DNA of 64,000 bases, taken from NCBI RefSeq assembly GCF_057098645.1, contig NZ_CM169472.1. One strand, 5' to 3'. Each line of letters begins with the position of its first letter. Within the stretch, counting starts at the first letter, position 1. Made by a program: the position numbers and the translations under genes. Under the pieces are notes generated by a model. The model did no database searches. It saw only the letters and a program-made list of their open reading frames with translations, and was not told the origin of the DNA. Shown one piece after another: positions 43,790 to 50,222 of this stretch.

Positions 43790-44467
43790 ATGAAGTGGGA
43801 CTGGATTTTCTTTGATGCCGATGAAACGCTGTTTACCTTTGACTCATTCACCGGCCTGCAGCGGATGTTTCTTGATTACAGCGTCAACTTTACCGCTGAA
43901 GATTTTCAGGACTATCAGGCCGTTAACAAGCCACTGTGGGTGGATTATCAAAACGGCGCGATCACTTCATTACAGCTTCAGCACGGGCGTTTCGAGAGCT
44001 GGGCCGAACGGCTGAAAGTTGAAGCAGGCTTGCTTAACGATGCCTTTATTAATGCGATGGCGGAAATCTGTACGCCGTTGCCGGGCGCGGTTTCTCTGCT
44101 TAACGCCATTCGTGGCAACGCTAAAATCGGCATCATCACCAACGGTTTTAGCGCCTTGCAGCAAGTGCGTCTGGAACGGACGGGCCTGCGTGATTACTTC
44201 GATTTGCTGGTGATTTCCGAAGAAGTTGGCGTTGCCAAACCGAATAAGAAAATTTTCGATTATGCGCTGGAACAGGCGGGCAATCCTGACCGTTCACGCG
44301 TGCTGATGGTTGGCGACACTGCCGAGTCCGATATTCTCGGTGGCATCAACGCCGGGCTTGCGACCTGCTGGCTGAATGCGCACAATCGCGAGCAACCAGA
44401 AGGCATCGCGCCCACCTGGACCGTTTCTTCGTTGCACGAACTGGAGCAGCTCCTGTGTAAACACTGA
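43790..44467 (+). CDS. yjjG: HAD-family pyrimidine 5'-nucleotidase YjjG
   Basis: 225-aa [20 protein letters not shown]… with HAD motif I DxDxT. Confidence 0.85.
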
Positions 44468-44557
44468 TTGCCTCCCCCCCGTTGATGGGTAAAATAGCCG
44501 CAATTTTTCGTTTTCAACAAGCGCGGCGCGATGCCGCTTACTCAAGAAGAAAGAATT

Positions 44558-44632
44558 ATGACGTTGTCTCCTTATTTGCAAGAGGTGGCGAAGCGCCGCA
44601 CTTTTGCCATTATTTCTCACCCCAATAATTAA
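44558..44632 (+). pseudogene. prfC: 5' remnant of peptide chain release factor 3 gene, truncated by prophage insertion
   Basis: ATG 44558 gives [22 protein letters not shown] then NN-stop; the expected continuation DAGKTT (GTPase P-loop) is missing and AT-rich phage DNA follows. Confidence 0.75.
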
Positions 44633-44779
44633 GCCCAAATTAAAGCTCTTTTACTCTTTCAAAGTCCTTTCAGTTAATTGAGTGTTAATCATATAACTCA
44701 TTTAATAACATGATGTTATGTGGTTTCTTTAATTGAAAATTCTTTCATGTAACTTTAAATCGATCAGGTTGCTTTCATC

Positions 44780-44852
44780 AAAAATCTGTACATGTGCTTG
44801 TACATAATGTACAAAACAGCAGAGGTGGTTTTTTATTTGTACAAGGTGAGTA
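44780..44852. repeat. TGTACA-containing repeats upstream of int (candidate arm-type or operator-like sites)
   Basis: tgtacatgtgcttgtacataatgtacaaaac … tttgtacaagg: four TGTACA motifs within about 60 bp. Confidence 0.35.
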
Positions 44853-46091
44853 ATGGCGCTGTCTGATGCGTGGTTGCGTTCAGTCGTTGGAAAGGAACGT
44901 GATAAGGTTTTGGTTAAATCCGATCGTGATGGTCTGTCTGTCAGAGTATCACCGAAAGGTCGCGTAGTGTTCCAATATCGTTATCAATGGGCAGGGAAAG
45001 GTGAGCGCCTTGATATCGGAACTTACCCGGCAACTGGATTAAAAGAGGCCAGAGAAGAAGTTATCCGTCTCCGTGGTGAACTCGAGTCAAACCGCAATCC
45101 ACGATTAGTCAAGCAGGCTGAAAAACGAAAAGCTACTGAAGCTATGACGGTAGAGTCTGTGATCCGTGCCTGGTATGAAGCATATTGTGTAAAAAATAAA
45201 AAAGGTTCTGAACAGATACTCCGCTCGTTTGAGCTGCACCTGTTCTCTAAAATCGGGAATATCCCTCACGATGCAGCTACATTGCATGATTGGTTAGAAG
45301 TCCTGGAGCCTCTTAGCACTAAGACTCCAGCAATAGCAGACCGATTGCTAATTAACGCAAAGCAGGCCCATGTCTGGGCGTATAAGAGAAAGCTCATTGA
45401 AACTCGCCCGCTGTCGGATATCACGGGTAAAGATATGGATATCCGTAAAGGTCAGAAGAAACGGTTTCTGACACATGATGAAATTAAAATCCTTTATGCT
45501 GCGATCGATGGTTCTCGAATGGTTCCCAAATACCGGGCCTTCATTAAACTATTGCTGCATTTCGGCTGTCGTAGTTCAGAGCTGATTACTGCCAGGGTGG
45601 ATGATTTTGATTTCATTAATAAGGTATGGACTGTACCGCCAGAACGACATAAGACAGGTGATATAACAGGCGAACCGCTAAAGCGCCCCATTATTGAACC
45701 GGTTGAAGAGCTTATAAAATACGTTATCTCTATGAACAACGGTTCCGATATGCTTTTTACCAAGGAAGGAAGCAAGGAGCCAGTTGGTCGGACATCATTG
45801 CAGTCGCTGCCTTACAATTTAATGCAGTACGCATGGCGGCGTTTGGGGTATCAATTTCCTCATTGGTCTCTTCATGATTTGAGACGAACAGCACGAACAA
45901 ACTTTTCTGATCTTACTGCGCCTCATATTGCTGAAATAATGCTCGGTCATAAACTGCCAGGGGTATGGCAAGTTTATGATAAGAGCGATTATCTAGAAGA
46001 ACAGCGTAAAGCCTATCAGGCATGGTGGGATAGGGTTGATTCGATTCTTACTTACACTAATTTAGGTTCCAACAGACAGCCTATTGAATAA
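44853..46091 (+). CDS. int: Phage tyrosine integrase (P4-type family)
   Basis: 412-aa ORF with catalytic-domain motifs (…HFGCRSSELITARVDDF…, …HDLRRTARTNFSDL…, …GHKLPGVWQVYDKSDYLEEQRK…); first gene inside the junction. Confidence 0.9.
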   Translation: MALSDAWLRSVVGKERDKVLVKSDRDGLSVRVSPKGRVVFQYRYQWAGKGERLDIGTYPATGLKEAREEVIRLRGELESNRNPRLVKQAEKRKATEAMTVESVIRAWYEAYCVKNKKGSEQILRSFELHLFSKIGNIPHDAATLHDWLEVLEPLSTKTPAIADRLLINAKQAHVWAYKRKLIETRPLSDITGKDMDIRKGQKKRFLTHDEIKILYAAIDGSRMVPKYRAFIKLLLHFGCRSSELITARVDDFDFINKVWTVPPERHKTGDITGEPLKRPIIEPVEELIKYVISMNNGSDMLFTKEGSKEPVGRTSLQSLPYNLMQYAWRRLGYQFPHWSLHDLRRTARTNFSDLTAPHIAEIMLGHKLPGVWQVYDKSDYLEEQRKAYQAWWDRVDSILTYTNLGSNRQPIE

Positions 46092-46196
46092 TGAATAGAC
46101 ATACAGAGTAAGAAAATAGTAATGATTCTTGGATTATAATTAACTGGTTGCTGATATTTTGATTTGCCGATTTATGAAGAGACGGTCATTATACTT

Positions 46197-46237
46197 ATAA
46201 AAACACCACTCCTTATCCTTACAGAAATAAGGAGTGG
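46197..46237 (-). terminator. Terminator of the cargo operon (bidirectional, between convergent int and the cargo gene)
   Basis: 11-bp stem ccactccttat / ataaggagtgg with loop ccttacagaa; on the minus strand it is followed by TTTTTATAA. Confidence 0.5.
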
Positions 46238-46243
46238 AAACAG

Positions 46244-47851
46244 TTATGGCTGAGACTCTGGTTTAGCAATCTCGTTTATAAATTTCTTAGCTACAACAGT
46301 CTCATACTTTCTATAATCATCAAGATATTGAACATCTATATGATTTTCGTAGCGAGCATTAAATTTATTTGCAGCCCCTGTTTTATCATCTTTACGTTCA
46401 TCCGTTGGTCTGAAAAATTTATGGTAGCGGCGGGGTGATACCCCCTCAAAATCACAAAATATTACTTTGGAAGATTCTTCGTTCTTTGTTATTGCATCAT
46501 TATGCAGATCAAGAGCAAGACTTTTATCAAATGGCTCTATATATACTACTTTTTTTATTCCAGCTGCGACAATATGCCTTGCACAGTTGTGGCAGGGATA
46601 GGTTGTCGTAAAAAGAATTTTATCTTTAGTATCGCCGTTTTGTTTTCTAGCCATTGATGTAATGACGTCCATTTCAGCATGAATTGATCTGGAGTACTCC
46701 ATTACACTTGATATTTTGCTGTCTTTGTAAATGCCTTCTGCAATATTATCTAATTTGTTTAGAAGTCGTGTTATATTAATATCGGCAACAGTTTGTCCTG
46801 CGGAAATACCTAATACAGTTCTTACTTCGGTTGATAATATGCTTTTTATACGGTCTTTAATTTTTAGCTTGTTTGCATCATTATAACACTTACCACTTTT
46901 GTGAACGCATCGATGATCGTTATCAAAATCATCACTGCTATACAACCCGCCACCAGCTTTAGGTACGTCGTTCTTACCCACGGCAAGCAAATTCCCTTCA
47001 TCATCAAACAGTGCAGCCCCTACTTGACGTGATAAACAAGCTGATTGTAATGATGTTGAAAAGGCAGCATACATACCTTTCTCGTTAAAAGTTGGTGTTA
47101 AACCATTTTTGCCATGAATAAGACCGAAAAACCGATCAATCTTCTTCTTTAATTCACTTTTTTGGCTGAAGTTATTTTTAATAAAAAAATCTGAATCAAG
47201 AATGGTTTCCCCGGTTCTTTGTCCATACGGATCAGAGGATTTATTATCAATATTGATAATTAAATGAAGGTCGTTCTTTGTCGATTCGTCATCAATGAGA
47301 TTCTGAATTCGGTAATCTAAATCGCGCAAAACTCCTAACAAATAGAAATTATGCTGATATATAACTCTGAATAACTCTATTTCTTCCGGCCTTTTGAATT
47401 GATCAATGATGAAGACAGTACCTTTATATTCATCATTATTATAATCATTATTATAATCAATATTATTTTTCTCTGCTGCGATTGCTGCAATAGCAGCTTC
47501 TGCAAGCAACTCATTTTTTTTGTAATGTTTACGAAGTTTATTGGCAATATCCTGGAGTTTTAAATGTCTATTAGCTTGTGTGCTTTCGGATACCTTCAGT
47601 GCTGCTGGCTCAAAATATAATGGGTTTTCCATAAGCGCACTTATGCGGATGTGTACAACATTATACCCCCATTCTTTGGATATCTCTTCGATAATTTTGT
47701 TTATCGTTCTCATGCCACATCCAACATATCCACACAATCCAAGATAAATATCTTTTGATTGTCGTGAATTCACAATCTCAAGTGATGATGCCGATGTTGA
47801 GCCTTTTTTTTCATTCAGCTTTTGTGGAGTTTTTTTTGCTGCTTCAGCCAT
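46244..47851 (-). CDS. Fusion protein: N-terminal degenerate P-loop kinase-like domain + C-terminal zinc-dependent deoxycytidylate/cytidine deaminase domain; candidate antiphage nucleotide-depletion enzyme
   Basis: 535-aa ORF. C-terminal half has the CDA-fold motifs …RQVGAALFDDEGNLLAVGKNDVP…, …SIHAEMDVITSMA… and …TYPCHNCARHIVAAGIKKVVYIEPF… (H-A-E / P-C-x-x-C). N-terminal half has a glycine-rich loop DIYLGLCGYVGCGMRT and a hydrophobic strand followed by Asp (TVFIIDQF). AT-rich; lies between int and xis. Confidence 0.6.
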   Translation of the reverse strand: MAEAAKKTPQKLNEKKGSTSASSLEIVNSRQSKDIYLGLCGYVGCGMRTINKIIEEISKEWGYNVVHIRISALMENPLYFEPAALKVSESTQANRHLKLQDIANKLRKHYKKNELLAEAAIAAIAAEKNNIDYNNDYNNDEYKGTVFIIDQFKRPEEIELFRVIYQHNFYLLGVLRDLDYRIQNLIDDESTKNDLHLIINIDNKSSDPYGQRTGETILDSDFFIKNNFSQKSELKKKIDRFFGLIHGKNGLTPTFNEKGMYAAFSTSLQSACLSRQVGAALFDDEGNLLAVGKNDVPKAGGGLYSSDDFDNDHRCVHKSGKCYNDANKLKIKDRIKSILSTEVRTVLGISAGQTVADINITRLLNKLDNIAEGIYKDSKISSVMEYSRSIHAEMDVITSMARKQNGDTKDKILFTTTYPCHNCARHIVAAGIKKVVYIEPFDKSLALDLHNDAITKNEESSKVIFCDFEGVSPRRYHKFFRPTDERKDDKTGAANKFNARYENHIDVQYLDDYRKYETVVAKKFINEIAKPESQP

Positions 47852-47861
47852 TGCTAATTAC

Positions 47862-48047
47862 CTAGTCGAAAACTATATCAGTATTTATTATTTCAAAAAA
47901 TGCATCAAGAATTTCTTTATTTTTCTTTTTACTTTCAAATGAAATGACATTATCTTGATTAAATGTTGTTAATTCAATGCAGATAGAATCAACCTGATCA
48001 TTGGCGGCGATGCTCGATTCTATTTCATTAAATGCTATTACATTCAT
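47862..48047 (-). CDS. Small acidic hypothetical protein co-oriented with and 10 nt upstream of the deaminase gene
   Basis: 61-aa ORF MNVIAFNEIESSIAANDQVDSICIELTTFNQDNVISFESKKKNKEILDAFFEIINTDIVFD with ATG start; same AT-rich composition as the downstream gene; weak Shine-Dalgarno. Confidence 0.35.
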   Translation of the reverse strand: MNVIAFNEIESSIAANDQVDSICIELTTFNQDNVISFESKKKNKEILDAFFEIINTDIVFD

Positions 48048-48391
48048 TTATCTTATCCAAACATAATAAAAAACCATATGGCCTTTAGTGTACAACAAAA
48101 CCATACTCTTTCCCCTCATTTTAGAGGGGGAAGTGTGGTCCACATCATGTTTTTTCCCACCCATGAAAATGTTCACCTAGGCTGGTGATGCATTTTATGT
48201 ACATCAACTCTTTGAGTTGAATCATTATTTTAGTATTTTTTCTATCATTGTGTAAATGTCTTCGTTTCAATACATCATGCTTGGGGAGCGGTCCCCGTTT
48301 CCTGATAATTAATGCTTGTGGATAGCAACGTCCGTGCCTGTATCGCTCAGACAGACGCTTACCGTGCCATAGACGTGTCTGTTCACATACG

Positions 48392-48586
48392 TCATTCAAT
48401 AACTCCTGCAAACCTGTAAATCTTGCGTGAAGCCCATTTATTTGGGCATGATTTAATATCAGGATCTGGAAAATCAGGCCTGTACTTCTGGCCAGTTCTC
48501 CGGTTTACGCTGTTCCAGCGAAGAACTGTCGATACTGAAACGCCACAGAAGTCGGCGACTTGTTTAGTTGTCATTAAGTTGTTCAT
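48392..48586 (-). CDS. xis: Excisionase / AlpA-family DNA-binding protein
   Basis: 64-aa ORF MNNLMTTKQVADFCGVSVSTVLRWNSVNRRTGQKYRPDFPDP… (winged-helix excisionase signature). Confidence 0.7.
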   Translation of the reverse strand: MNNLMTTKQVADFCGVSVSTVLRWNSVNRRTGQKYRPDFPDPDIKSCPNKWASRKIYRFAGVIE

Positions 48587-49206
48587 TACTTCACCTCCTG
48601 CGGCGGTTCCGGTAGCGGCATCCAGTGGGTTACTTTCGATGCCGGTTCTTCTCCATTGTCAGTAACTGCCCACCATTTGTTTCTCGAACAATCATAATAC
48701 CCTTCGAAGGTATCGCACTCAGTCCAGCCGTAAGACTTACCCCGACACCAAACATACTGTTTATCGTTCGGCATTCGCTCACTACAGCTTATCCAACCAT
48801 CCGGAGTTACCGGAGAGTTGCCCGACAGCTTGTTCAACTTGTAAGTCTGGCTTACAGGTTTGGCACCATGAAGCATGGTGGCGCGGCAGGCGTTCCAGCC
48901 TTCATCAAAACCGACTATGCCATTATTTAAAGACGGACGAGCATCTGGCACCACCAGTACTGGCTTGGCTATATATAGCGGCTGAACATACCAGCCCTTT
49001 GATAACCAACTGTCAGCAATGTTTTTGCTCCTGGTTATTGCCGGAATACCTAAGCCATTGTCTGAATGCAGCCATGCCACCGGCTCCTCTTCCAGCGATG
49101 CCAGAGCAATTTCATAAGCACGGCGCTCAATATCGTCTCGAACCTCTAGGCTGCTGATTCGTTCTTTGATTTCTTTAATCAGTTCTTTATTGGTAAATGT
49201 GGTCAT
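48586..49206 (-). CDS. Prophage early protein (DUF551 / YfdT-like)
   Basis: 206-aa ORF, Cys/Trp-rich C-terminal half (…WISCSERMPNDKQYVWCRGKSYGWTECDTFEGYYDCSRNKWW…); stop/start overlap with neighbours. Confidence 0.5.
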   Translation of the reverse strand: MTTFTNKELIKEIKERISSLEVRDDIERRAYEIALASLEEEPVAWLHSDNGLGIPAITRSKNIADSWLSKGWYVQPLYIAKPVLVVPDARPSLNNGIVGFDEGWNACRATMLHGAKPVSQTYKLNKLSGNSPVTPDGWISCSERMPNDKQYVWCRGKSYGWTECDTFEGYYDCSRNKWWAVTDNGEEPASKVTHWMPLPEPPQEVK

Positions 49207-49568
49207 TATGCTCCAGCCTCCGGCGCTTTGGGTATTACTGCCCAGTGAGTGATATTGAAGTTTTCAAGGTCCCCGACCTGAAATGTCCACTGCCATTCTC
49301 CGGTTTCTTTTTGTCCCCAGGTGTACCAGAGAGAACGCCAGCCAATCAGCCAGCCTTCTCCGTTAGCATCAAATAACAGAACACTTTCATTTGCTGGTGG
49401 CAGTTCAGCTGACACTGGTATTATTTTGTTTTCCAGTGCCGCACATTTAGCTTCAAGCGCGTCGAATTTACGTACCAGGTACTCAGCATTTGTTTCGTTC
49501 ACTTTCAGATCTCGCGGTACACATTTCCCGCGAAGAAACCCTTCCATTTCGAAAACATTCATGCGCAT
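49206..49568 (-). CDS. Prophage early protein (YfdS-like)
   Basis: 120-aa ORF in an overlapping operon arrangement. Confidence 0.5.
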   Translation of the reverse strand: MRMNVFEMEGFLRGKCVPRDLKVNETNAEYLVRKFDALEAKCAALENKIIPVSAELPPANESVLLFDANGEGWLIGWRSLWYTWGQKETGEWQWTFQVGDLENFNITHWAVIPKAPEAGA

Positions 49569-50095
49569 TTGCGTAACTCCGATAATTCGTTAAAGCGTTC
49601 CATAAACATCCCGTAGGCATGGCCTGGAGCCAGTGGAATCACGTTGATCATCTCTGTTGCCGGGATACCTTCCAGCACAGGCCAGAAAGAGCCATCATCA
49701 AGCCCGAGATCGCGGCGTTCGGTTGCCAGCATGATGAGATCGGCATATTTCACGGGTGTACTCATAACCGGGGGTAACCCGTATTTCTCACGGATTACGG
49801 CGTCTATTTTTTCTTCCATCCGTTTATAGTCAGGAAGAAGGCGTTTCAGTGGAGCCGGGATGTCCTGGCAATACGCTTCTGTTGCATCATGCATTAACGC
49901 TTCAAAAGCAAATTCCTGCGGTACCAGTTTGCTGCAAAGCACCGCATGTTGGGCGACGCTGTAGAAGTGTGAAAGATGACCGGCAAAGCGACAGATATTT
50001 GAAAGGGAAACTGCGATATCGTTAATCACGATGTCGTCTTTATTTATCCTGTCATAATAAAAATGCTTCCCGGAAAAAGTTTTAATAAATGACAT
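49559..50095 (-). CDS. HD-domain phosphohydrolase, YfbR/YfdR-like 5'-deoxynucleotidase
   Basis: ORF 49559..50122; from MSFIKT… 178 aa; HD motif context (…NICRFAGHLSHFYSVAQHAVLCS…, …HDATEAYCQDIP…). Confidence 0.7.
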   Translation of the reverse strand: MSFIKTFSGKHFYYDRINKDDIVINDIAVSLSNICRFAGHLSHFYSVAQHAVLCSKLVPQEFAFEALMHDATEAYCQDIPAPLKRLLPDYKRMEEKIDAVIREKYGLPPVMSTPVKYADLIMLATERRDLGLDDGSFWPVLEGIPATEMINVIPLAPGHAYGMFMERFNELSELRKCA

Positions 50096-50222
50096 TTTGT
50101 TCTCCACGTATATGCGCTGCACCGCGCTGAATTTTGGTTAAAGAAAACCCTCGCCATCAGGCGATTATTGAGTCAATTATGTTTCCATAAATGCCCCCGC
50201 AGGGGCATTTGCAGTAAGGAAA

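What the first reader, a model, noticed from the sequence alone, without database searches (positions are those of the whole stretch)
46092..48391. Cargo island wedged between int and xis with its own terminator
Seen in sequence: int (plus strand) and xis (minus strand) are separated by about 2.3 kb of AT-rich DNA carrying the deaminase operon. The operon is convergent with int and ends at a strong 11-bp hairpin (46206..46237) followed by a U-run on the minus strand. A 12-nt in-frame tandem duplication (atcattattata x2, about 47438..47461) encodes DYNNDYNND within the large gene. Established knowledge: int-proximal positions in prophages and satellites are recurrent hotspots for defence and other cargo. 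Inference: this is an independently acquired module, and the tandem repeat suggests replication slippage in a linker.
Basis: partly seen in the sequence, partly recalled or inferred. Interest (0 to 1): 0.55.

Follow-up and report, generated by a model that had tools for sequence, protein, structure and literature searches.

The report
Anti-phage deaminase cargo in prophage hotspot
The AT-rich 2.2 kb block between the integrase and excisionase genes of this E. coli prophage is a self-contained copy of a known anti-phage system (AvcID, the dCTP deaminase), sitting in a slot where related prophages carry other defence genes.

Summary
The window holds a lambdoid prophage of about 43 kb integrated in the 5' end of prfC. 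Between its integrase (44853..46091, +) and excisionase (48392..48586, -) lies a 2.2 kb block of 34% GC. The block has a promoter-like site, a 61-codon ORF, a 535-aa protein and a strong terminator hairpin.

The large protein is the known anti-phage dCTP deaminase AvcD. It passes the NCBIfam equivalog cut-off, matches the PADLOC dCTPase model at 1.9e-164, and is named this way in RefSeq. The small ORF sits where the published AvcI antitoxin RNA lies.

Of 5,426 complete E. coli genomes, 699 carry this integrase but only 48 carry the module. In 15 sampled relatives the same slot holds 11 different cargoes, including Dsr1, dGTPase and Borvo. The same promoter-to-terminator block is also found in other positions in Budvicia, Morganella and Proteus. 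The 12-nt repeat is a recent in-frame duplication, absent from 37 of 40 E. coli copies.

This is a new instance of a known kind. One unexpected side result: the avcI locus behaves like a conserved protein-coding gene in evolution. The ORF stays open, pN/pS is 0.2-0.5, and a C-terminal motif is conserved with free third codon positions. Published work describes AvcI as a non-coding RNA.

The parts
44558..44626 (+). Displaced 5' fragment of prfC at the left prophage end (attL). The att core is about TTTGCCATTATTTCTCACCC at 44603..44622.
   Evidence: It translates to [23 protein letters not shown]. RefSeq marks it as a partial CDS. A 20-nt repeat lies at the start of intact prfC, 43.4 kb away in the identical strain.
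44853..46091 (+). Tyrosine integrase, 412 aa. Its last 12 or so codons belong to the variable block.
   Evidence: phrog_1 at 2.8e-75. It is present in 699 of 5,426 E. coli genomes. Homology to relatives decays over 46054..46077, and integrase lengths vary from 404 to 412 aa.
46206..46237 (-). Intrinsic terminator hairpin of the module, followed by a U-run at 46196..46205 on the minus strand.
   Evidence: 13 pairs, -18.1 kcal/mol, z = -3.66. It is conserved with a compensatory change in Budvicia and Morganella.
46244..47851 (-). avcD: anti-phage dCTP/dCMP deaminase, 535 aa. The N-terminal domain is P-loop kinase-like and the C-terminal domain is a zinc deaminase.
   Evidence: PADLOC dCTPase at 1.9e-164. 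NCBIfam NF041025 equivalog scores 464.7 bits against a cut-off of 400. Pfam dCMP_cyt_deam_1 covers residues 256-438. RefSeq lists it as WP_088129574.1. It is 60% identical to AvcD of ETEC H10407 and 87% identical to a Proteus mirabilis homologue.
47432..47466 (-). 12-nt in-frame tandem repeat encoding DYNNDYNND. The extra copy is 47448..47459.
   Evidence: TRF reports period 12 and 2.9 copies. The extra copy is absent in GB089, and 37 of 40 E. coli copies are 12 nt shorter.
47862..48047 (-). 61-codon ORF 10 nt upstream of avcD, in the position of the published AvcI antitoxin RNA. Its stop codon TAG overlaps the AGG ribosome-binding site of avcD.
   Evidence: phrog_9966 matches full length at 1.9e-43. 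The layout matches H10407 p58 and other systems. The ORF is conserved and shows coding signatures.
48227..48256 (-). Promoter-like site of the module: TTTACA, 18 nt spacer, TAAAAT (10 of 12 matches).
   Evidence: Best-scoring site of the scan. It lies inside the block that is homologous to Budvicia, which starts at 48266. It matches a consensus only; it is not shown to be active.
48300..48391 (-). Segment of about 90 nt just downstream of xis that is conserved in all relatives. It marks the right edge of the variable slot.
   Evidence: Alignment A2.
48392..48586 (-). Excisionase, 64 aa, the last gene of the leftward early operon.
   Evidence: phrog_1553 'excisionase' at 7.7e-36. It is conserved at 85-100% in 15 of 15 sampled relatives.

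Best explanation
The block is a self-contained copy of the AvcID anti-phage system, also called the anti-phage dCTP deaminase. It is carried as cargo in a variable slot between int and xis of a lambdoid prophage integrated in prfC.

Shown here:
- The module consists of a promoter-like site, the avcI locus, avcD and a terminator.
- Its composition is foreign to the prophage.
- It occurs in a minority of prophages that share the same int and xis.
- The slot carries other defence genes elsewhere.
- The same promoter-to-terminator unit occurs in other elements in other genera.

Inferred from published work on homologues (bioRxiv 10.1101/2021.03.31.437871, 10.1101/2021.04.26.441389; PMC10511110):
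- In the lysogen the module is transcribed from its own promoter.
- AvcD is made but held inactive by the short-lived product of the avcI locus.
- When an infecting phage shuts off host transcription, the inhibitor decays.
- AvcD then deaminates dCTP and dCMP to dUTP and dUMP.
- Loss of deoxycytidine nucleotides stalls phage DNA replication and gives defective particles. This protects the lysogen population, and with it the prophage.

The hairpin ends the module's transcript before it can run antisense into the convergent int gene. The DYNN duplication is a recent replication-slippage event in a length-variable loop just before the Walker B strand.
For: Identity of the system:
- PADLOC, NCBIfam above its curated cut-off, and Pfam all match.
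- RefSeq names the protein 'anti-phage dCTP deaminase'.
- Catalytic and nucleotide-binding residues are invariant in the six-homologue alignment: H391, E393, C420, C423; G41, G44, G46; D150, Q151.
- The protein is 60% identical to the tested ETEC H10407 AvcD, with the same arrangement of a 61-codon ORF followed by the deaminase gene. It is 87% identical to a P. mirabilis homologue.
- AvcD is under strong purifying selection, pN/pS 0.13-0.16.

Cargo in a hotspot:
- 699 genomes carry the integrase against 48 with the module.
- 11 cargoes were found in 15 loci, among them Dsr1, dGTPase and Borvo.
- GC is 34% against 45-49% in the rest of the prophage.

A self-contained, mobile unit:
- Homology to Budvicia and Morganella is limited to promoter through terminator, and the hairpin covaries.
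- The module lies in different contexts elsewhere.
- Homologues occur on small plasmids of 4.6-5.8 kb.

Duplication.
Against: - No experiment was done on this allele. Defence, dCTP depletion and the role of the avcI locus are transferred from homologues that are 40-87% identical.
- The promoter is only a consensus match, and the scan found no more promoter-like sites in the region than in shuffles.
- No Rfam family exists for AvcI, and RNAalifold gives only a weak consensus fold (-5.2 kcal/mol). The RNA part of the mechanism is therefore unsupported here.
- All 40 intact E. coli copies sit at this one site. Within E. coli the module spreads with the prophage rather than by itself.
- Slot diversity was sampled in 15 of 699 genomes, not counted in all of them.
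Confidence: 0.9

Rival explanations
1. The module's regulatory partner is a small protein rather than, or in addition to, an RNA. On this view the 61-codon ORF is translated and its product acts on AvcD as antitoxin, chaperone or sensor. The system would then be type II-like or dual, not a pure RNA-antitoxin system.
For: - The ORF is kept open (53-80 codons) upstream of avcD in dozens of diverged systems. Shuffle p per locus is 0.004-0.075 and the summed ln p is -42.7 over 11 loci.
- A motif-bearing ORF is found upstream in sense orientation in 28 of 80 genomes. It is found in 0 antisense, and in 1 and 0 of the downstream controls. It is present in 23 of 28 loci where AvcD is at least 40% identical.
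- pN/pS is 0.23-0.54 in frame for the informative pairs, Fisher p 0.0002-0.009. In the other two frames it is 0.77-0.98.
- A C-terminal motif, A-x3-[IVL][IL]-x2-A-x2-L-x-W-stop, is conserved from 26% to 59% GC. Codon-position entropies are 1.42, 1.06 and 1.66 bits, and third positions are nearly free at the conserved Ala and Leu positions.
- Shine-Dalgarno-like sequences precede most of the ORFs.
Against: - Hsueh et al. report that V. cholerae DifV/AvcI still works without a ribosome-binding site and with ATG changed to TAA. They also report that AvcI RNA binds and inhibits AvcD (bioRxiv 10.1101/2021.03.31.437871; PMC10511110).
- One natural allele (L027) has a stop at codon 45 beside an intact avcD.
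- The V. cholerae locus itself could not be retrieved, so it is not known whether the tested AvcI carries the motif.
- The AF2 model has low confidence: pLDDT 66, with a single helix at residues 37-55.
Confidence: 0.3
2. The module serves mainly as an addiction (toxin-antitoxin) cassette that stabilises the prophage. Phage defence would be a side effect or absent for this allele.
For: - AvcD homologues are toxic when expressed without avcI (bioRxiv 10.1101/2021.03.31.437871).
- Homologues sit on very small plasmids of 4.6-5.8 kb, where stabilisation would pay.
Against: - The same slot carries Dsr1, dGTPase and Borvo, which are not addiction modules.
- Defence was shown for several homologues, including ETEC and V. 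parahaemolyticus (PMC10511110; bioRxiv 10.1101/2021.04.26.441389).
- IS insertions that disrupt avcD are tolerated in several strains.
Confidence: 0.1
3. The deaminase is a core metabolic enzyme of the phage, like the dCMP deaminase of T4. It would adjust nucleotide pools for the phage's own replication.
For: - The C-terminal domain matches dCMP deaminases (Pfam PF00383; PDB 1vq2 at 1.3e-8).
- The prophage also encodes a 5'-deoxynucleotidase, YfdR.
Against: - Only 48 of 699 prophages with this integrase carry it.
- The two-domain 535-aa architecture and the NCBIfam equivalog assignment are those of the defence enzyme.
- T4-type enzymes match only residues 263-444, at 28% identity.
- It has its own promoter-like site and terminator, and its composition is foreign.
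Confidence: 0.02

Closest known systems
AvcID / anti-phage dCTP deaminase (Hsueh et al. 2022; Tal et al. 2022). Tested homologues come from V. cholerae, V. parahaemolyticus, P. mirabilis, E. coli ETEC H10407, E. coli AW1.7 and U09.
   Same: - The protein has the same two domains, a P-loop kinase-like domain and a zinc deaminase, with all catalytic residues.
- It passes the NCBIfam equivalog and PADLOC models.
- A small element of about 186 nt lies immediately 5' in the same orientation.
- It is 60% identical to ETEC AvcD and 87% identical to a P. mirabilis homologue.
   Different: - This allele is untested.
- It carries a 4-residue DYNN duplication just before Walker B.
- It sits in a lambdoid prophage. 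The ETEC copy is on a 5.8 kb plasmid, and the V. cholerae copy is described in the papers as lying in the VSP-1 island.
- AW1.7 dCTP deaminase is 576 aa according to the preprint and was treated there as a single gene.
Defence hotspots of prophages and satellites: P2 and P4 hotspots (Rousset et al. 2022, PMC9122126; Vassallo et al., bioRxiv 10.1101/2022.05.12.491691) and E. coli defence islands on mobile elements (PMC10121019).
   Same: - Conserved flanking phage genes enclose a short, mostly AT-rich, highly variable segment that is enriched in defence systems.
- Each prophage carries only one or two defence systems.
   Different: - The slot lies between a convergent int and the xis end of the early left operon of a lambdoid prophage integrated in prfC.
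- The swap includes the last codons of int.
- No description of this particular slot was found in the papers searched. That is a limited search, not proof of absence.
Type III toxin-antitoxin systems such as ToxIN
   Same: - The antitoxin locus lies upstream of the toxin in one transcript.
- The published model is activation by transcription shut-off and decay of the antitoxin.
   Different: - There are no tandem RNA repeats in the avcI region.
- AvcD is not an endoribonuclease.
- The avcI locus shows protein-coding constraints.
SAMHD1 and bacterial dGTPase nucleotide-depletion defence
   Same: - The strategy is the same: starve the virus of one dNTP.
- A defence dGTPase (PADLOC 8.7e-105) occupies this very slot in a related prophage, L011.
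   Different: The chemistry differs (deamination rather than triphosphate hydrolysis) and the fold is unrelated.

Membership tests
AvcID / anti-phage dCTP deaminase | Curated family models are matched over the full length. | tested here: met
   NCBIfam NF041025 (equivalog) scores 464.7 bits against a cut-off of 400. PADLOC dCTPase matches at 1.9e-164 over residues 10-533.
AvcID / anti-phage dCTP deaminase | C-terminal zinc-dependent cytidine/dCMP deaminase domain with HAE and PCxxC motifs. | tested here: met
   Pfam PF00383 covers residues 256-438 at 6.5e-14. H391, A392, E393, P419, C420 and C423 are invariant in six homologues.
AvcID / anti-phage dCTP deaminase | N-terminal P-loop kinase-like domain with Walker A and Walker B motifs, both needed for activity in the tested homologues. 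| tested here: met
   G38, C40, G41, G44 and G46 (GLCGYVGCG), and D150-Q151 after a hydrophobic strand, are invariant. They correspond by sequence alignment only to the mutated V. cholerae residues D162/Q163 and the AW1.7 residues G29/C30, as cited from the preprints. No Pfam kinase domain is detected.
AvcID / anti-phage dCTP deaminase | An antitoxin locus (avcI) of about 170-300 nt lies immediately 5' of avcD, in the same orientation and co-transcribed. | tested here: inconclusive
   Position, size and orientation match: a 186-nt ORF lies 10 nt upstream, as in H10407 p58. Co-transcription and RNA activity cannot be tested here. There is no Rfam model, and the consensus fold is weak.
AvcID / anti-phage dCTP deaminase | Deaminates dCTP and dCMP after phage infection or transcription shut-off, and protects against phages. 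| not testable with these tools
   This rests on published work with homologues (PMC10511110; bioRxiv 10.1101/2021.03.31.437871, 10.1101/2021.04.26.441389).
Prophage defence hotspot | The flanking genes are conserved in related prophages. | tested here: met
   The int 3' end is 93-100% identical and xis 85-100% identical in 15 of 15 sampled loci. Alignments A1 and A2 show this directly.
Prophage defence hotspot | The content between the flanks differs among relatives. | tested here: met
   11 distinct cargoes of 1.2-4.2 kb were found in 15 loci. The module is present in 48 of 699 int-bearing genomes.
Prophage defence hotspot | The variable content is enriched in known defence systems. | tested here: met
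   The cargoes include dCTP deaminase, dGTPase (8.7e-105), Borvo BovA (2.5e-183, split in two ORFs) and Dsr1 (RefSeq name). An HNH protein and a DUF4365 protein give weaker matches. Five cargoes have no match. No formal enrichment statistic was computed.
Type III toxin-antitoxin (ToxIN-like) | The antitoxin is an array of tandem RNA repeats processed by an endoribonuclease toxin. | tested here: not met
   TRF finds no repeats in 47852..48300. The toxin is a deaminase.

The most novel reading that the evidence does not exclude
The avcI locus of AvcID systems, published as a non-coding RNA antitoxin, would be a conserved small-protein gene of about 55-80 aa. The protein has a central [NKD]-V-x-x-[FL] motif and a C-terminal amphipathic helix. 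The helix ends in ...A-x2-L-x-W, or in ...I-[IV]-F-D in the window's subfamily. The peptide would take part in controlling AvcD or in sensing infection, so the system would be dual RNA/protein or type II-like.

The evolutionary signature of translation is strong in these data. A function for the peptide is not shown, and it conflicts in part with the published start-codon mutants in V. cholerae.
Probability: 0.45. Interest if true: 0.7.

Novelty: new member of a known kind. Interest (0 to 1): 0.42.

Why it matters
For the finding as given, the result is mostly tidy bookkeeping. A known nucleotide-depletion defence system rides in a prophage, and the int-xis gap of this common E. coli prophage family (13% of complete genomes) is a swap slot for defence genes.

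Two practical uses follow:
- The unannotated cargoes in the same slot are good candidates for new defence genes. They are proteins of 239, 331, 342 and 413 aa, and a 150 + 160 aa pair.
- The survey of avcD loci shows that the 'RNA antitoxin' locus carries the marks of a conserved protein-coding gene. If confirmed, this would change how AvcID is classified and how its activation is studied. Recoding experiments can test it directly.

Tried and rejected
- Rfam scan of 44400..49400 at E up to 1: only two chance-level hits, and no AvcI family.
- RNAalifold on six avcI regions of the window's subfamily: a weak consensus fold (-5.2 kcal/mol) with one hairpin. The alignment of the two distant members is doubtful, so this counts neither for nor against an RNA structure.
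- PDB sequence search: only distant dCMP deaminases, and no solved AvcD.
- Phage isolate genomes (INPHARED): no close AvcD. The best full-length hit is 40% identical, and the T4-like hits are metabolic dCMP deaminases.
- AF2 of the small protein: low confidence, and only the C-terminal helix is predicted. No fold search was run on it.
- Pfam on the small-ORF alignment: nothing.
- The apparent second genomic context in the OkiPb strains (H81-H88): it is an IS421/IS1A rearrangement of the same locus, not an independent insertion.
- The V. cholerae avcI locus could not be obtained.
- Early python calls wrongly appeared to lack loci. The files hold several records each.
Full report
**Observation**

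The window is E. coli chromosome (holD-rimI-yjjG) followed by a prophage. A 100% identical stretch occurs in strain WWCOL-256, where the prophage is a complete-looking lambdoid element of about 43.4 kb that ends at prfC. The displaced 5' end of prfC lies at 44558..44626, and a 20-nt core repeat is found at the start of intact prfC. The 'prfC-integrated prophage' is therefore real.

The flanking genes and the block between them are as follows:
- The integrase is 44853..46091 (+).
- The 64-aa ORF at 48392..48586 (-) matches the PHROG excisionase family phrog_1553 at 7.7e-36.
- Between them lie 2,300 nt at 34-35% GC. The integrase is 45% GC, the adjacent early genes 47%, the rest of the prophage 49% and the host 51%.
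- The hairpin at 46206..46237 on the minus strand has 11 Watson-Crick pairs plus 2 G-U pairs and a U-run. It folds at -18.1 kcal/mol, z = -3.66, and no shuffle folds as well.
- The 12-nt repeat is reported by TRF at 47432..47466, 2.9 copies, 95% matches.

All parts of the observation hold.

**What the cargo is**

The 535-aa protein (46244..47851, -) matches three family libraries:
- PADLOC 'dCTPase' at 1.9e-164.
- The NCBIfam equivalog NF041025 'anti-phage dCTP deaminase' at 464.7 bits, above the curated cut-off of 400.
- Pfam dCMP_cyt_deam_1.

RefSeq already names the identical protein WP_088129574.1 'anti-phage dCTP deaminase'. The zinc-deaminase residues and the Walker A- and Walker B-like residues are invariant in an alignment with five homologues.

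The protein is 60% identical over its full length to AvcD on plasmid p58 of ETEC H10407, one of the homologues tested by Hsueh et al. (bioRxiv 10.1101/2021.03.31.437871). It is 87% identical to a Proteus mirabilis homologue. P. mirabilis AvcID was also tested in that paper, but I could not compare the exact accession.

Ten nucleotides upstream lies a 61-codon ORF (47862..48047), which matches phrog_9966 at full length. H10407 p58 has the same layout: a 61-codon ORF, a 12-nt gap, and a 532-aa deaminase. The paper states that these small ORFs 5' of the homologues act as the cognate inhibitor, DifV, later renamed AvcI.

The best promoter-like site of the region (TTTACA-18-TAAAAT, 48256..48227) lies upstream of the small ORF. 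The module therefore reads promoter, avcI locus, avcD, terminator.

**Is it cargo?**

Distribution across 5,426 complete E. coli genomes:
- 699 carry this integrase at 95% identity or more.
- 48 carry the module. Forty copies are intact, and all of these sit in the same yjjG-int-...-xis context.
- The other eight are IS421/IS1A-disrupted derivatives.

I fetched 15 int-bearing loci spread over the similarity ranking:
- In all of them the int 3' end and xis are conserved.
- The two genes are never adjacent. The gap is 1.2-4.2 kb, and all but one cargo is 33-38% GC.
- The gap holds 11 different contents.
- Known defence systems among them are AvcID, the Dsr1 sirtuin, a defence dGTPase (PADLOC 8.7e-105) and Borvo BovA (2.5e-183, split into two ORFs).
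- An 868-aa HNH protein and a DUF4365 protein give weaker defence-model matches.
- Five cargoes are unknown.

Alignments place the left breakpoint inside the last dozen or so codons of int (46054..46077). This explains integrase lengths of 404-412 aa. The right breakpoint is about 90 nt below the xis stop, at roughly 48300.

**Does the module travel by itself?**

Nucleotide homology between the window and other genera spans essentially promoter to terminator and nothing else:
- Budvicia aquatica: window 48266..46097, 85% identity.
- Morganella morganii: window 48179..46187, 84% identity.

The terminator hairpin is kept with a compensatory change: CCACTCC/GGAGTGG becomes CCTCTCC/GGAGAGG.

The flanks differ in each case:
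- In Budvicia the module follows a different integrase.
- In Morganella it lies beside a tail-fibre gene.
- In an IMG/VR prophage the order is exonuclease-xis-int-[module]-prophage end.
- In P. mirabilis it lies 1.2 kb from icd.

More distant homologues sit on plasmids of 4.6-5.8 kb and on conjugative plasmids. Within E. coli, however, this allele is seen only in this one slot.

**The repeat**

GB089 and the window differ by exactly 12 nt, at 47448..47459 within the repeat. The window has TGATTATAATAA twice, flanked by TGAT microhomology. The protein is 535 aa in the window and 531 aa in GB089. Thirty-seven of 40 E. coli copies have the shorter length. The P. mirabilis, Budvicia and IMG/VR homologues also have the shorter length.

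The site lies about 10 residues before the Walker B strand, in a stretch that varies in length among homologues. It is a recent slippage duplication. Its effect is unknown.

**Mechanism**

The mechanism is taken from published work on homologues and is inferred for this allele:
- AvcD is held inactive by the unstable avcI product.
- Phage-induced transcription shut-off removes the inhibitor.
- AvcD converts dCTP and dCMP to dUTP and dUMP.
- Phage DNA synthesis starves, and defective particles form (PMC10511110; bioRxiv 10.1101/2021.04.26.441389).

The hairpin, with a U-run on the minus strand only, ends the module's transcript 114 nt before the convergent int gene.

**An unexpected side result**

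[quoted passage not shown] A 2025 review still describes it as non-coding (PMC12409362).

In a survey of 11 diverged systems, followed by 80 genomes from one scan, I found the following:
- An ORF of 53-80 codons lies upstream of avcD in nearly all systems whose AvcD is at least 40% identical to the window's.
- Keeping such an ORF open is improbable in this AT-rich DNA. Shuffle p per locus is 0.004-0.075, and the summed ln p is -42.7.
- The translations share a central [NKD]-V-x-x-[FL] motif and a C-terminal A-x3-[IVL][IL]-x2-A-x2-L-x-W-stop. The window's subfamily ends instead in [AS]-F-x-[EK]-I-[ILM]-x2-[DE]-I-[VI]-[FL]-D-stop.
- A regular expression for these motifs hits 28 of 80 upstream regions in sense orientation, 0 in antisense, and 1 and 0 in the downstream controls.
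- Over the last 18 codons of 32 W-ending ORFs, spanning 26-59% GC, codon-position entropies are 1.42, 1.06 and 1.66 bits.
- At the two conserved alanines the first two codon positions are nearly fixed while the third is nearly random.
- Within the window's subfamily, pN/pS is 0.23-0.54 for the informative pairs (Fisher p 0.0002-0.009). In the other reading frames it is 0.77-0.98.
- Shine-Dalgarno-like sequences precede most of the ORFs.

These are signatures of selection on a peptide, not on an RNA sequence.

Several points count against a required peptide:
- The published V. cholerae start-codon mutants retain activity.
- AvcI RNA is reported to bind and inhibit AvcD.
- One natural allele has a stop at codon 45 next to an intact avcD (L027).
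- I could not retrieve the V. cholerae locus to see whether it has the motif.

The family has no Pfam match, and every database name for it is 'hypothetical protein'. AF2 predicts only the C-terminal helix, at low confidence.

I report this as the most novel reading that the data do not exclude, not as established.

**Verdict**

The finding is real and correctly interpreted. The thing itself is a known defence system in a known kind of place. The specific int-xis slot of this common prophage family, and the coding signature of the avcI locus, are the parts worth following up.

Noticed in passing
window 47862..48047 (-); also L016 2618-2803, L018 700-882, L019 643-825, L020 681-866, L021 644-814, L034 2805-2990, and L058-L105 (coordinates): The small ORF at the avcI locus is conserved as an open frame. 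It carries amino-acid motifs, shows 3-periodic variation, and has pN/pS of 0.2-0.5 across many genera. Published work describes AvcI as a non-coding RNA.
   Followed up: yes
L003 3544-4539, L004 4362-5603, L002 3463-4182, L009 6500-7528, L013 6325-7301, L008 6333-8939, L010 7116-7514: Several cargoes in the same int-xis slot of related prophages match no defence model or only weakly, which makes them candidate new defence genes. They are a 331-aa protein that looks membrane-spanning or coiled-coil by eye (WP_000653746.1, seen in 3 of 15 loci), proteins of 413, 239 and 342 aa, a 150 + 160 aa pair, an 868-aa HNH protein, and a DUF4365 protein.
   Followed up: partly
window 46054..46091: The last dozen or so codons of int are exchanged together with the cargo. 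Integrase lengths vary from 404 to 412 aa among relatives, so the recombination that swaps cargo has its left junction inside int.
   Followed up: partly
L027 2805-2939: One IMG/VR copy of the module has a premature stop at codon 45 of the small ORF while avcD is intact (531 aa). This is a natural test case for whether the peptide's C-terminus is needed.
   Followed up: no
L007 4718-8370; hits H48, H53-H55, H81-H88: IS421 and IS1A have inserted into or beside the module in several bovine and pig strains. In the OkiPb strains avcD is shortened to 462 aa and the locus is moved next to idnO, which suggests recurrent inactivation.
   Followed up: partly
window 48300..48391: A segment of about 90 nt just after the xis stop is conserved in all relatives and contains short inverted repeats. 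It may be the xis terminator or a recombination site marking the right edge of the slot.
   Followed up: no
window 47852..47864: The small ORF's stop codon TAG overlaps the AGG ribosome-binding site of avcD, 10 nt before its ATG (GACTAGGTAATTAGCAATG). This is conserved in the window's subfamily. The arrangement suggests translational coupling. In other subfamilies the gap between the small ORF and avcD is larger, up to about 110 nt in the 11 systems measured.
   Followed up: partly
window 49559..50122 (-) and 43790..44467 (+): The prophage encodes a YfdR 5'-deoxynucleotidase about 1 kb from xis, and the host gene next to attL is yjjG, a pyrimidine 5'-nucleotidase. Three enzymes acting on deoxynucleotides thus lie within 7 kb. 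This is probably coincidence.
   Followed up: no
window 48392..48586 and 47862..48047: RefSeq (PGAP) annotates neither the excisionase nor the small ORF in the identical strain WWCOL-256. In other strains each is sometimes annotated, sometimes called a pseudogene, and sometimes missing.
   Followed up: yes
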